Position numbers: made by a program | Part shown: one piece after another, positions 24,001 to 27,000 of the stretch | Layout of the letters: every line of letters begins with the position of its first letter | How positions within the stretch are numbered: the first letter of the stretch is position 1 | Source: Escherichia coli | GTDB taxonomy: Bacteria; Pseudomonadota; Gammaproteobacteria; Enterobacterales; Enterobacteriaceae | Reading direction: 5' to 3' (one strand) | DNA length: 64,000 nucleotides | Assembly: GCF_030013205.1 (NCBI RefSeq) | Contig: NZ_CP122649.1

Positions 24001-27000
24001 TTGACCGGTTGGTAATTTAGTCTTGTAAAAATATCCCCAGATGGGTACTTCACCATCTGGGTGAGTACCCTTTATCAAATAAAGGTACTCAAATGAAATT
24101 TGATTTAAAATCTTCACCACGCCATATTCAACGCCTGACGAATATAGCCAGCGTGATAAGCGGTATAAATGGGATTTATGTAATTATTGACAATAAGGTG
24201 AGTACACCTTATTTCAACACCCAAAACAATGTCTGTGTTTTACCTAACGGTGATTATAGCGATGAGAGATTTGTCAAGCTAATTGAAGGATTCATATGTC
24301 ATGAAGCAGGACACGGTCGTTATACAGAGCATGAAGTATACCGTGAAGCTTTTGTTGGAGAATTGATCAATGCAGATGGCTTCATCAGTATTGATGATGA
24401 CTTGAAGGCTGATTTTCAAAACCTAAAACAAAAGCAAAAAGCATATGCTCGTGCTTGTCGACTAAAAGGACTTATTAATCTTTTTGATGATGTCCAGATG
24501 GAAGAGAAGACGGGTATTGATTATCAGGAGGCAAAAAAACGCCTCGCGGTGACTTATGCCTTGATGGTTGAAGCTGGGCGTATGACGGTTGATATTTCTT
24601 CAACCCCTCAAAACCCGGTTCAGTTTATTGAAATGTACCTGCTTAATACATTGCGGGTTAACGTTCTCCAACAAGAAGGGCATAAAGAAACGCTTGACCC
24701 ATTTTTCGATTATGCAAAGAAAATCCTTGCACCTGTAACTTCAGAAGTCGATGAGATCATTCATCAAGCTCTAAGTTGCAAAAGTACGCAAAATTGCGAT
24801 TCTCTGGCGCGTAAAACTCTGGCTCTTTTAGAGCGTTTAAGGGATGAAGCAAAAGAGAAACAGCAAGAAGAGGAGCAGTCGAAAGACCCGCATGACGATA
24901 CAGATGAATCATCTGGCTCTGAGAATGAACCTGATACCGAACCCAATGGTGATAGCCAGGGTGAAGGGGATGGTGATAAAGAAGGTCAAGGCGATGATTC
25001 TGGTGATGGTAAGGCGCCTGCGGAAGGTAATGGGTTACCGGACCAATCCGGAGGGGATGAACAAAATGCTGAGAACTCTAACGGCGAACCTGATGGTGAG
25101 TCTGAAGGTGATGAATCGGCGACCCCCGGCTCGGATGATGCTGACTCGACACCTTCCCTAAACGACAGTTCAAATGGAAATTCTTCTGATGGGGAAAGTA
25201 ACTTTTCTCCTGAACAGTGGGATATGCTTGCCAAATTGCTGGATGATTTTTTAAACAGTGATGAGGAAAGCGAGGATTTTCATGAGGTTCTTGCAAAAGA
25301 GATCTCCGTAATTGCTGCCAGTGTGTCGGATGAGGTTAAAGCTGAATTTGGTGCAAGTGAGTGGGATGTTCCAGATTTGAACATTGATCTGAATGTCTAC
25401 AATGAAGCATTAAATATCAGCCAGACCCTTGGGGCAGATTTATCTGTTTTACAGCAGGTAAAAATGCGTGGTCAATTTAAAACCCGTGATAGAGGCTTGT
25501 CATTCGATATTAATCGACTGATCCAGTCTCCGATGGGTGTTAGGGATGTATTTCGGTCACAAAGCGAATCTAAAAACCGGGGCCACGTCGGCTTGGTCAT
25601 TGTTCGTGATATTTCAGGTTCAATGAGTCTGGAACACCGTTATATCCATGCAATTAAGACTGACCTTGCATTAACTCTGGCAATTGAAGCTATTTCAAAA
25701 ATGCATGTTGCTAATGTGATTTATCCGTTTGTAGACAAAGATTTTGAAGTTATCAAAACGTTTGATGAAAACGCGGAAGAGAAACTTTCAAAATTCTCAC
25801 TTGGCTGCAAGGGCAATAATACCCCAACGGGTTCTGCATTAAATGCTGCTTTAGAGTTGTTACTTGAAAGCCAGTTTGACAGGAAAATTGTTTTCCTTAT
25901 TACTGATGGTTATCCGACTGAGTCGGCTTACACCATTAATGATGTTTTTTCAGTTGCTGAAAGTAACGGCATTGAAATCGCTGGTGTTGGTATTAAAACT
26001 GATGTGTTGATGGGTTTTAATGAGGGCACCTTCGTAAATGTTGATGATATTTCTTTATTGCCGAATGAGGTCAGTAAATTAGTACATCAAATTCTATCTA
26101 ATTAAACTCTACCCAATCGGGGCAAAACGACGCCCGGTTGGGTCGCTTTGCTCCCTGAAGGATTAAGGAGCAATATATGACTCAGATAAAGACTTACCGT
26201 GTCGAGTATGAAAAAGTCGGGACGATGCATCGTGTCCGTATTTTTGGTCGCATGGGTGAAATTGTCAAAAGTGAATTGCCAGAAGAAAGAATTCTCCGGG
26301 ATGTATCTATACCAGAGGGTAATGGAGAAATGGCAACGTCAATGGTTGATGGTTTTATCCAGCGTCTTGAAAATATCGGCTTCAAGACTGAAGCGTAATT
26401 GTTGAGGGCTCTTGTGGGCCCTCATTCTTAGATTCTGCGTTGTGGGTTTCTCCCTGTTTTCTGCATCGCAGAGGGCATTGAGAAACCCACAATGCCAGAT
26501 AAGAGAGAACAAATGACTTATGCATCCCAGGCTGTTAAGCGTACACCACATGAAGTCACTGACCACTTTATAAAAATGGTTCACGCTCGTATAGCGGAAG
26601 TATCAGGCTGGCGCTATGTATTCGATAGAATACCGGCATTTAAAGACGCTTGTGATAAAGCACCTGGCCAGGTTCCTTGCCCATTTAGTGGGGTCGGGAA
26701 ATCAAAGTTCCGGTTCCGTAAAAAGGACCTCTTTACCGGTTGTGCCATTCACAATGATTTTCCAGTGAATGCATTTTGTGACGGTATTGATGTATTGGCA
26801 GAGTACTACAAGCTGAGCAAGACCCAGACTTGTAAGAAGATCCTGACTGATTTCTTTGGGATGGATTTGTACGCTCCATTAACTGATGCGGATCTCGAAA
26901 GTGAACGTCGTTATAAATCAACAGTTCGTGCAACCGAAACGCTTGACAGCGATGAAGTTGAAAAACGAGGGCGTAAACTTGAAGTGATATATCACTATAC

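What the first reader, a model, noticed from the sequence alone, without database searches (positions are those of the whole stretch)
26399..26491. Compound inverted-repeat leader directly upstream of the primase-like gene
A 7-bp stem (tgagggc / gccctca, 26403-26424) is followed by a 9-bp long-range pair gggtttctc (26444) / gagaaaccc (26480) that encloses a small ctgc-atc-gcag hairpin and ends 3 nt before the ATG. The weak SD is buried in the right arm, so translation of the primase-like gene is probably tightly gated.
Basis: seen in the sequence. Interest (0 to 1): 0.4.

Follow-up and report, generated by a model that had tools for sequence, protein, structure and literature searches.

The report
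Conserved hairpin leader before plasmid primase gene
The DNA just before a primase-like gene on IncHI drug-resistance plasmids encodes the most stable RNA hairpin of the whole plasmid; it probably adjusts how much primase is made, which is a familiar kind of control, but this element has not been described before.

Summary
The second and third inverted repeats are one imperfect hairpin: arms 26437-26464 and 26468-26495, loop AUC. It is preceded by a small GC hairpin at 26403-26424. The window is an IncHI1 plasmid of the R27/pHCM1 type. The long hairpin is the most stable 70-nt window of all 180 kb of R27. It is also the most conserved 60 nt of the region, 83-93% identical in plasmids whose primase is only 44-79% identical.

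The hairpin ATG (26492) falls out of frame or meets a stop in relatives. The conserved start is ATG 26513, with SD AAGAGAG at 26501-26507, outside the hairpin. That SD does pair, but with a pyrimidine tract (26425-26430) 5' of the hairpin, and the pairing is partial: P(unpaired) is 0.2-0.5.

The same layout, anti-SD, long hairpin, then SD, recurs with unrelated sequences upstream of primase homologues in IncC, Rheinheimera, Pseudoalteromonas and Sideroxydans.

Best reading: an mRNA leader that controls translation or stability of the last cistron of a tra-co-regulated operon, probably through nuclease processing. It is not in Rfam. It is not a terminator, an ssDNA promoter or a thermometer. 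Interest is moderate.

The parts
26177..26398 (+). Upstream cistron: 73-aa ORF, R0205 of R27 by gene order. Stop codon TAA at 26396-98.
   Evidence: ORF list; annotated in all relatives; no Pfam or NCBIfam hit.
26403..26424 (+). Hairpin A: 7 perfect bp, or 9 bp with one G-U (26403-11 with 26416-24). It is terminator-like but lacks a good U-tract.
   Evidence: I13; -17 kcal/mol, z = -3.9. The sequence differs but the hairpin is kept in IncHI2, Citrobacter, Klebsiella and Photorhabdus. No loss of array signal across it (R0205 352, R0204 403).
26425..26430 (+). Pyrimidine tract UUCUUA: the anti-SD, 5' arm of basal helix P1.
   Evidence: Pairs with 26500-05 in the MFE of every family member. 87.8% of cells paired in A3, with one double change.
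26430..26434 (+). Single-stranded linker AGAUU between the anti-SD tract and the long hairpin. It fits the RNase E-like RN|WUU motif.
   Evidence: Unpaired in all folds. The motif match rests on my memory of the Salmonella RNase E consensus, so it is an inference.
26434..26452 (+). P2 5' arm, the lower stem of the long hairpin.
   Evidence: 14 of 19 pairs are invariant across 14 distinct sequences.
26455..26477 (+). P3: apical 10-bp stem (26455-64 with 26468-77) containing three consecutive U-G pairs, and loop AUC (26465-67). It is separated from P2 by the CC/UU internal loop.
   Evidence: Changes are U-G to C-G or U-A. The internal loop becomes AA/UU pairs in the Klebsiella plasmids and L102.
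26480..26499 (+). P2 3' arm, with C26495 bulged in the MFE. It contains the annotated ATG 26492-94.
26500..26507 (+). Shine-Dalgarno region UAAGAGAG of the primase-like gene. 26500-05 is the 3' arm of P1.
   Evidence: Conserved as AAGAGAG or AGGAGAG 5-7 nt before the conserved ATG. P(unpaired) is 0.2-0.5.
26513..27745 (+). Primase-like gene (R0204 of R27) read from its probable true start. Degenerate zinc ribbon + DUF7146 + Toprim_3.
   Evidence: Pfam. Start inferred. AF2 model has pLDDT 88, and the top 20 PDB matches are all DnaG, T4 gp61 or T7 gp4 primases.
27762..27861 (+). Two terminator-like hairpins (27762-82 and 27847-61 followed by T8) after the primase gene. Probable end of the nine-gene operon.
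   Evidence: R27 array signal falls from 403 (R0204) to 49 (R0203).

Best explanation
The 26399-26512 spacer is the mRNA leader of the last cistron of a nine-gene operon, R0002 to R0204 of R27. That operon lies just after trhI and is switched on together with the transfer genes. The last cistron is a DnaG/Sog/TraC-type primase-like gene whose probable start is ATG 26513.

On the sense RNA the leader forms two structures. The first is a small hairpin A just after the upstream stop codon. The second is an ~85-nt three-tier hairpin: apical P3, an internal loop, a nearly invariant 16-19-bp P2, and a short basal helix P1. In P1 a pyrimidine tract (26425-30) pairs with the Shine-Dalgarno sequence (26500-05). 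The long stem acts as a clamp that brings anti-SD and SD together, and it lowers ribosome access to the primase cistron.

P2 and P3 together make more than 20 bp of coaxial dsRNA, and the linker is single-stranded AG|AUU. The most likely way the block is modulated is therefore endonucleolytic processing, by RNase III in the stem or RNase E in the linker. Either cut separates anti-SD from SD and leaves the hairpin, or a stub of it, at the 5' end of the primase message.

Shown here: the structure, its extreme stability, its conservation, its position, its sense-strand bias, and the absence of termination.

Inferred: the effect on translation, the nuclease involved, and whether cleavage activates (as reported for the lambda N leader and adhE) or destabilises (as in rpsO-pnp).
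For: Stability. z is -7 to -8.5. The hairpin is the top-ranked of 36,080 windows in R27.

Conservation. It is the most conserved 60-nt window of the 3.6-4.2-kb syntenic region against Klebsiella (0.88 vs 0.53 overall), IncHI2 (0.93 vs 0.71) and Photorhabdus (0.83 vs 0.51). Primase identity in those relatives is 44%, 79% and 55%. blastn aligns only the hairpin between IncHI1 and the Klebsiella plasmids.

Sense-strand bias. There are 4 G-U pairs on the + strand, which become A-C mismatches on the - strand. RNA MFE is -46.1 vs -37.0. The same bias holds in the whole family, IncC, Colwellia and Pseudoalteromonas.

Basal helix. The anti-SD:SD helix appears in every family member's MFE.

Recurrence. 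The same anti-SD, long hairpin, SD layout occurs with unrelated sequences in L014, L015, L010 (IncC) and L066, where P(SD unpaired) is 0.08-0.30. In 25 of 67 primase-homologue loci the most stable 80-nt window of the locus lies in the 4-5% of sequence just upstream of the gene; about 3 would be expected by chance.

Transcription. R27 arrays show the operon as one thermoregulated, HtdA-controlled unit with no signal loss across the leader.

Precedent. RNase III cleaves between cistrons in rpsO-pnp (PMC8708148). Processing-dependent RBS exposure in operons is documented in PMC10667835.
Against: There is no statistical covariation within the alignable family. P2 is simply invariant, and the shuffles match the observed counts. 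The constraint could therefore be on sequence rather than on pairing.

P1 is weak in IncHI1. It adds about 3 kcal/mol and is absent from the centroid structure.

RBS opening energy is no higher than for sibling cistrons that have only small hairpins. SD masking alone does not explain a 28-bp stem.

Some distant betaproteobacterial loci favour the opposite strand or lack the hairpin.

There are no experimental data on RNA ends, cleavage or translation.
Confidence: 0.5

Rival explanations
1. Structural punctuation only. The hairpins are selective-processing and stabilisation elements: a 3' cap for the upstream segment and a 5' cap for the primase segment. They set relative mRNA half-lives and exert no specific control of primase translation.
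For: Almost every intergenic region of this operon has the same two-hairpin layout, and so does the Klebsiella counterpart with different sequences. The primase RBS opening energy is ordinary for the operon. Stem-loop-dependent stoichiometry in operons is documented (PMC10667835).
Against: This hairpin is about three times as stable as its siblings, and it is the most stable in the plasmid. P2 is sequence-invariant over divergences at which the sibling hairpins have changed completely. The anti-SD:SD basal helix recurs in unrelated lineages.
Confidence: 0.2
2. A single-stranded-DNA signal. The hairpin forms in ssDNA during transfer or lagging-strand synthesis and serves as a priming site (ssi) for the adjacent plasmid primase or for the host primosome.
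For: It lies next to a DnaG-type primase gene. P2 is near-invariant while the protein diverges, and it is replaced by unrelated hairpins in distant primase lineages, as expected for a cognate recognition pair. It also folds well as DNA (-23.2 kcal/mol, z = -7.0).
Against: Three consecutive G-T pairs at the apex and the consistent sense-strand bias fit RNA better. Tight spacing to the SD and anti-SD pairing have no meaning for an ssi. The site is 66 kb from oriT, which lies next to mobI at about 108 kb in R27, and is not at a rep origin. If transfer leaves the relaxase operon last (inferred by analogy), the T-strand is the antisense strand, which forms the weaker hairpin.
Confidence: 0.12
3. 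A protein-binding RNA operator. The primase itself, or another plasmid protein such as the 73-aa R0205, binds the P2 helix and represses or activates translation (autogenous control).
For: Sequence invariance of P2, rather than covariation, suggests base-specific recognition. The element is single-copy per plasmid, with no other P2 half-site in R27. A small ORF always precedes the primase gene.
Against: No RNA-binding domain is detected in R0204 or R0205. There is no direct evidence. Invariance could also reflect nuclease sequence preferences.
Confidence: 0.1
4. A DNA-level element: an operator, a cruciform, or an inverted pair of Ter-like sites for the plasmid-encoded Tus homologue.
For: There is a perfect 13-bp inverted repeat. 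GTTGT resembles the Ter core. A Tus homologue is encoded about 10 kb downstream.
Against: The centre of the repeat is mismatched on the - strand, which is unfavourable for cruciform nucleation. The palindromy extends through the 27-bp spacer, and a pair of half-sites would not need that. No other half-sites occur on R27. There are no E. coli-type Ter matches above chance. Distant homologues keep the hairpin but not the sequence.
Confidence: 0.04
5. A transcription terminator or attenuator between R0205 and the primase gene.
For: Hairpin A is GC-rich and followed by a T-rich stretch. In IncHI2 the tail is TTTCTT.
Against: The terminator scan does not call it. The long hairpin has no U-tract. 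R27 array signal does not fall across it (352 to 403), whereas it falls 8-fold after the gene.
Confidence: 0.04

Closest known systems
rpsO-pnp intercistronic leader of E. coli (RNase III site upstream of pnp)
   Same: Same order of parts: upstream gene, a leaky terminator-like hairpin, a long imperfect hairpin in the spacer, then the SD and the downstream gene. It lies inside a polycistronic transcript. RNase III cleavage there changes the fate of the downstream cistron only (PMC8708148).
   Different: No sequence relation. Cleavage has not been shown here. In pnp the cut destabilises the message and feeds autoregulation by PNPase. Here the direction of any effect is unknown, and the base of the hairpin additionally pairs with the SD.
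RNase III-activated leaders (lambda N leader, adhE, T7 0.3), recalled from memory
   Same: A long stem next to the RBS occludes initiation, and cutting the stem frees the RBS.
   Different: These were recalled, not tested here. The SD occlusion in IncHI1 is only partial.
SD-sequestering leader hairpins and RNA thermometers
   Same: The anti-SD pyrimidine tract pairs with the SD.
   Different: The pairing is closed by a 26-29-bp hairpin with a free energy near -43 kcal/mol. Predicted SD accessibility is the same at 25 and 37 C, so it is not a thermometer.
Frpo/ssi single-stranded-DNA promoters of plasmid leading regions
   Same: A conserved hairpin upstream of a gene on a conjugative plasmid.
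   Different: Frpo-type elements are larger stem-loops that reconstitute -35 and -10 boxes. They lie in the leading region and form on the template strand (PMC11541004 and PMC12672017). This element folds at -23 kcal/mol as DNA, has no -35 or -10, lies 66 kb from oriT, and favours the sense strand.
Plasmid DNA primases Sog (IncI1), TraC (IncP) and P4 alpha (for the gene, not the hairpin)
   Same: Zinc-ribbon plus toprim architecture. The EGIE(N/T)AL motif resembles the EGYATA motif, which I recall from memory. The fold matches DnaG, T7 gp4 and T4 gp61 primases.
   Different: Only 410 aa, with no helicase or transfer domain. The zinc ribbon is degenerate in the IncHI1 copy (CPFSG...GCAIHND), whereas the family consensus is CPxHGG...CNxCG. 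Activity is untested.

Membership tests
Any Rfam family | Match to a curated covariance model | tested here: not met
   cmscan of 24000-29000 at E <= 1 found only a spurious togavirus hit elsewhere.
Intrinsic terminator | GC-rich stem followed by a U-tract | tested here: not met
   Neither hairpin A nor the long hairpin is called by the terminator scan. The tail after hairpin A is ATTCTTAG, and the long hairpin is followed by CCAGATAAG.
Intrinsic terminator | Drop of downstream transcript | tested here: not met
   R27 array signals: R0205 352, R0204 403, R0203 49. The gene-to-ORF mapping rests on gene order.
Frpo-type ssDNA promoter | -35 and -10 hexamers reconstituted in the stem | tested here: not met
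   No promoter-like site on the + strand in 25500-27500. By inspection, the best candidate is TTGAGA-N16-TAAGAG, with 3 of 6 matches in the -10.
Frpo-type ssDNA promoter | Leading-region location, and a large hairpin on the template strand | tested here: not met
   oriT and mobI are at about 108 kb, the element at about 174.7 kb of R27. DNA folding gives -23.2 kcal/mol (+) and -20.4 (-). The mining threshold used in PMC12672017 was < -75 kcal/mol.
RNase III substrate | About 20 bp or more of coaxial dsRNA | tested here: met
   P2 (16-19 bp) and P3 (10 bp) are separated by a 2x2 loop. Long helices also occur in the unrelated homologous leaders.
RNase III substrate | Cleavage by RNase III in vitro or in vivo, and absence of antideterminant base pairs | not testable with these tools
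   Needs rnc mutants, end mapping or an in vitro assay.
SD-sequestering translational leader | SD base-paired in the predicted ensemble | tested here: inconclusive
   The SD is paired in the MFE of all 14 family variants. However, P(unpaired) is 0.2-0.5 and P1 is absent from the centroid. In L014, L015, L010 and L066 it is 0.08-0.30.
SD-sequestering translational leader | Pairing maintained by compensatory change | tested here: inconclusive
   One double change in P1, and no excess over shuffles. Support comes instead from the recurrence of the architecture in unrelated sequences.
RNA thermometer | SD accessibility changes between permissive and non-permissive temperature | tested here: not met
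   P(SD unpaired) is 0.39 at 37 C and 0.36 at 25 C, and similar in all relatives.
ssi / primosome or primase loading site | Stable hairpin in ssDNA | tested here: met
   DNA fold of -23.2 kcal/mol, z = -7.0.
ssi / primosome or primase loading site | Supports priming on the strand that is single-stranded in vivo | not testable with these tools
   The nic site and transfer polarity of R27 are not available here. No priming assay is possible.
DnaG-type (toprim) primase, for the downstream gene | Toprim catalytic fold with E...DxD motifs and an N-terminal zinc ribbon | tested here: met
   Pfam Toprim_3 and DUF7146. Invariant E280-G-x-E283, D330 and near-invariant D332. The top 20 PDB Foldseek hits are all primases. 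The zinc ribbon is intact in the family consensus but degenerate in IncHI1.

The most novel reading that the evidence does not exclude
The hairpin is the cognate recognition element of the plasmid's own primase. It would act either as an RNA operator for autogenous translational control or as the ssDNA site where the primase starts complementary-strand synthesis. This would explain two things: why P2 is base-for-base invariant across IncHI1, IncHI2, Klebsiella IncHI1B/FIB and Photorhabdus elements whose primases are only 44-79% identical, and why more distant primase lineages carry a hairpin of the same size and position but unrelated sequence.
Probability: 0.12. Interest if true: 0.7.

Novelty: new member of a known kind. 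Interest (0 to 1): 0.4.

Why it matters
IncHI1, IncHI2 and Klebsiella IncHI1B/FIB plasmids are major carriers of multidrug, colistin and carbapenem resistance. About 1,970 plasmids in PLSDB carry this element. It is the most stable local structure and the best-conserved non-coding segment of their backbone, and it sits in an operon that is switched on together with the transfer genes. If it controls primase supply, it is a handle on plasmid establishment. It also gives a sharply defined test case, 85 nt with clear mutational predictions, for how long operons of conjugative elements set the output of individual cistrons. The operon-wide regular pair of hairpins at every gene junction suggests a general design that has not been described.

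Tried and rejected
- **Terminator or attenuator.** Rejected on the scan and on the R27 array data.
- **Frpo-like ssDNA promoter.** Rejected on size, absence of -35/-10, strand and distance from oriT.
- **RNA thermometer.** Rejected: no change in predicted SD accessibility between 25 and 37 C.
- **Translational coupling by a terminating ribosome that opens hairpin A.** I forced the ribosome footprint unpaired at 8 junctions. RBS opening improved at only 2 and not at the primase junction, so I rejected this.
- **Tus/Ter-like inverted pair, or a dispersed DNA-binding motif.** No Ter-like matches above chance, and no other P2 half-site in R27.
- **Covariation as proof of structure.** Uninformative, because the alignable family is almost invariant.
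- **Metagenome scan for the P2 arms.** It added only a few new variants (L102, L093, L116). It also returned four unrelated palindromes (L096, L100, L112, L118), a number that my rough chance estimate could account for.
- **L005, an apparently truncated copy.** The left arm and flanking sequence look scrambled relative to other IncHI2 copies, which I take to be assembly error; it was not used.
- **Literature searches for IncHI primase, R1 gene 19/RNase III and the lambda N leader.** They returned nothing directly usable. Those precedents are cited from memory only.
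Full report
**What is in the sequence**

The second and third repeats are parts of a single imperfect hairpin. Its arms are 26437-26464 and 26468-26495 (28 nt, 79% complementary) and its loop is ATC (I1). Read from the tip, it has:
- a 10-bp apical stem (P3) with three consecutive U-G pairs;
- a CC/UU internal loop;
- a 16-bp lower stem (P2), 13 bp of which are perfect. P2 can be extended by UCUG/CAGA with C26495 bulged.

In the minimum-free-energy fold, a short basal helix (P1) pairs UUCUUA (26425-30) with UAAGAG (26500-05). Hairpin A (26403-24) sits 5 nt after the stop codon of the upstream 73-aa ORF.

The structure is far beyond chance. The 141-nt leader gives z = -7.1 and the 88-nt core z = -8.5. 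It ranks second of 12,788 windows in this window, beaten only by a high-GC transposon segment. It ranks first of 36,080 windows over the whole R27 plasmid on both strands (-40.7 kcal/mol against a mean of -13.3, sd 5.05).

**Context**

The window is an IncHI1 plasmid, 100% identical to many E. coli and Salmonella plasmids and 99.9% identical to pHCM1. It carries the Tra2 AN operon, trhI and then a long string of co-directional genes.

The R27 transcriptome paper (PMC7366339) reports a cluster of nine genes, R0002 to R0204. They are induced 5- to 23-fold at 25 C and strongly derepressed in an htdA mutant. R0003 is trhI, so gene order makes R0205 the 73-aa ORF and R0204 the primase-like gene, the last of the nine.

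Array signal does not fall across the leader (352 then 403). It falls 8-fold after the gene (to 49), where two terminator-like hairpins lie. The leader therefore lies inside a polycistronic mRNA and does not terminate it.

The gene product carries Pfam DUF7146 and Toprim_3. An AlphaFold model built on 31 homologues (pLDDT 88) finds only DnaG, T4 gp61 and T7 gp4 primases among its top 20 PDB matches. 'Primase-like' is therefore justified, though activity is untested.

**The start codon**

The annotated ATG at 26492 lies inside the right arm of P2. In the Citrobacter plasmid L004 and in IncHI2 it is out of frame with the gene. In the Klebsiella plasmids it runs into a stop. PGAP starts there correspond to ATG 26513, which is preceded by the conserved AAGAGAG or AGGAGAG. 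Opening an RBS at 26492 would cost about 31 kcal/mol, against 8-14 for 26513.

**Conservation**

About 1,970 PLSDB plasmids carry the element, one copy each. The second 'place' reported in some records is the palindrome matching itself.

Between IncHI1 and the Klebsiella IncHI1B/FIB plasmids, blastn aligns only the hairpin, yet the primase proteins are 44% identical. In sliding-window comparisons over 3.6-4.2 kb of syntenic DNA, the hairpin is the best-conserved 60 nt in every case:

| Comparison with the window | Identity over the hairpin | Identity over the whole region |
|---|---|---|
| Klebsiella | 0.88 | 0.53 |
| IncHI2 | 0.93 | 0.71 |
| Photorhabdus | 0.83 | 0.51 |

On 14 distinct sequences, 92.6% of cells pair, but 14 of 19 P2 pairs never vary and there is no covariation beyond the shuffles. 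The changes that do occur are one-sided: U-G to C-G or U-A, G-C to G-U, and the internal loop becoming paired. The alignable family therefore shows sequence constraint that is compatible with the structure. It does not provide covariation proof. Hairpin A, by contrast, changes sequence completely while remaining a hairpin.

**Distant relatives**

I fetched 80 loci encoding homologues of the primase from species-representative genomes, plus plasmid hits. In 25 of 67 loci, the most stable 80-nt window of the 5-7-kb locus lies in the 4-5% of sequence just upstream of the gene. About three would be expected by chance.

The hairpin sequences are unrelated between lineages, for example:
- Photobacterium: CATCGGGATTCGTAAAGC...
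- Rheinheimera/Colwellia: GGGATTGTCAGATC...
- IncC: CGGGGTTTCCTTAAAACCC...
- Methylobacter: GGGACTTCCTTGAT...

By eye, sister sequences within each lineage differ by compensatory changes: L014 vs L020 and L008 vs L018.

In Rheinheimera, Pseudoalteromonas, IncC and Sideroxydans, a 9-12-bp helix between a pyrimidine tract and the SD closes the long hairpin. There the SD is predicted to be 70-92% paired. This recurring architecture is the strongest support for a role in translation.

The set is not uniform. Some betaproteobacterial loci lack a strong hairpin or favour the opposite strand.

**RNA or DNA?**

The + (sense) strand carries four G-U pairs that become A-C mismatches on the other strand. 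RNA MFE is -46.1 against -37.0, and DNA MFE is -23.2 against -20.4. The same bias holds across the family and in IncC, Colwellia and Pseudoalteromonas.

The mismatched centre disfavours cruciform extrusion. The tight, conserved spacing to the SD has meaning only for mRNA.

The element is 66 kb from oriT, which lies next to mobI at about 108 kb of R27. It has no -35 or -10 and is much smaller than known ssDNA promoters. No other copy of the P2 half-site exists on R27, and no Ter-like sites exceed chance. Rfam has nothing matching.

**How it most likely works**

The leader is best read as a post-transcriptional control element of the primase cistron. The long stem clamps an anti-SD tract onto the SD. 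In IncHI1 this masking is only partial: P(unpaired) is 0.2-0.5 and is unchanged between 25 and 37 C. It is no stronger than at sibling junctions. Masking alone therefore does not explain a 28-bp, sequence-invariant stem.

Two features suggest processing:
- More than 20 bp of coaxial dsRNA, the substrate form of RNase III.
- A single-stranded AG|AUU linker between the anti-SD and the stem, which resembles the RNase E motif (recalled from memory).

Either cut would sever the anti-SD from the SD and leave a structured 5' end on the primase message.

The closest documented layout is rpsO-pnp, where RNase III cleaves a long hairpin between cistrons and changes the fate of the downstream gene only (PMC8708148). 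Processing-dependent RBS exposure and stem-loop-dependent stoichiometry in operons are documented in PMC10667835.

Whether cleavage happens, and whether it activates or destabilises, is inferred and not shown.

**Rivals**

- The invariance of P2, together with lineage-specific replacement of the hairpin, is the pattern expected for a cognate protein-nucleic-acid pair. An RNA operator bound by the primase, or an ssDNA priming site, therefore remains possible (about 0.1 each).
- A purely structural punctuation role is plausible (0.2), given the operon-wide design.
- Terminator and DNA-operator readings are unlikely.

**Verdict**

It is notable for its extreme stability and conservation on clinically important plasmids. 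Interest is moderate (0.4).

Noticed in passing
window 19915-32688 (intergenic regions at about 19915-72, 20351-410, 22818-87, 24016-92, 26106-76, 28545-621, 29501-70, 30507-83, 31505-76, 32620-88): Nearly every junction of this co-directional gene string has the same layout. A first hairpin follows the stop codon. A second hairpin just before the ATG holds the next gene's SD in its 3' arm. RBS opening energies are 11-16 kcal/mol for most internal cistrons against 5 for the first gene. The Klebsiella counterpart (L006) has the same layout with different sequences.
   Followed up: partly
window about 20371, 22830, 26112, 29511, 30530, 31516, 32630 (R27 368, 178364, 175076, 171681, 170664, 169675, 168561): The first hairpins form a two-tier family, CCC-N2-5-GGG-loop-CCC-N2-5-GGG (for example ACCCAATCGGGG...CCCGGTTGGGT). 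The strict motif occurs at only 7 sites in the 180-kb R27, all within this one gene string. Block shuffles give 0-5 raw hits against 18 observed. Similar hairpins precede the primase leader in IncC (L010) and Methylobacter (L009). Function unknown.
   Followed up: partly
window 26492-26512: The RefSeq/PGAP start of the IncHI1 primase-like gene (ATG 26492) is probably 7 codons too far upstream. The conserved start is 26513.
   Followed up: yes
window 26513-27745 (protein residues about 54-85): The family consensus has an intact primase zinc ribbon (CPxHGGxDxFR...CNxCG). The IncHI1 and IncHI2 copies have a degenerate version (CPFSGVGKSKFRFR...GCAIHND). The toprim motifs are kept.
   Followed up: no
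window 27762-27782 and 27847-27861: Two terminator-like hairpins in the 274-nt spacer after the primase gene. They coincide with an 8-fold drop in R27 array signal and with read-through in the htdA mutant.
   Followed up: partly
L009 2376-2450 (Methylobacter plasmid), also L050: In this lineage, a 24-codon ORF with a strong SD (GAGGAG) starts at the 3' end of the long hairpin and ends in ATGA, overlapping the primase start codon. This looks like a leader peptide coupled to the primase gene.
   Followed up: no
L096 1394-1455, L100 1497-1558, L112 294-345, L118 1804-1857 (metagenome contigs): Four unrelated long palindromes share the arm sequence GTTGTGGGTTTC...GAAACCCACAA with the IncHI hairpin, but nothing else. 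By my rough estimate, that number could arise by chance in a collection of this size. Their contexts were not examined.
   Followed up: no
L123 8462-8531 (R27 108462-108531, outside the window): A 70-nt near-perfect hairpin lies in the mobI-traH intergenic region, where oriT is expected. It is among the ten most stable windows of R27.
   Followed up: no
L059, L069, L090, L029 (betaproteobacterial loci), about 160 nt upstream of the primase homologue: In these loci the upstream hairpin is clearly more stable on the antisense strand (for example -56 vs -44 kcal/mol). Either a different element or a different strand is used there.
   Followed up: no
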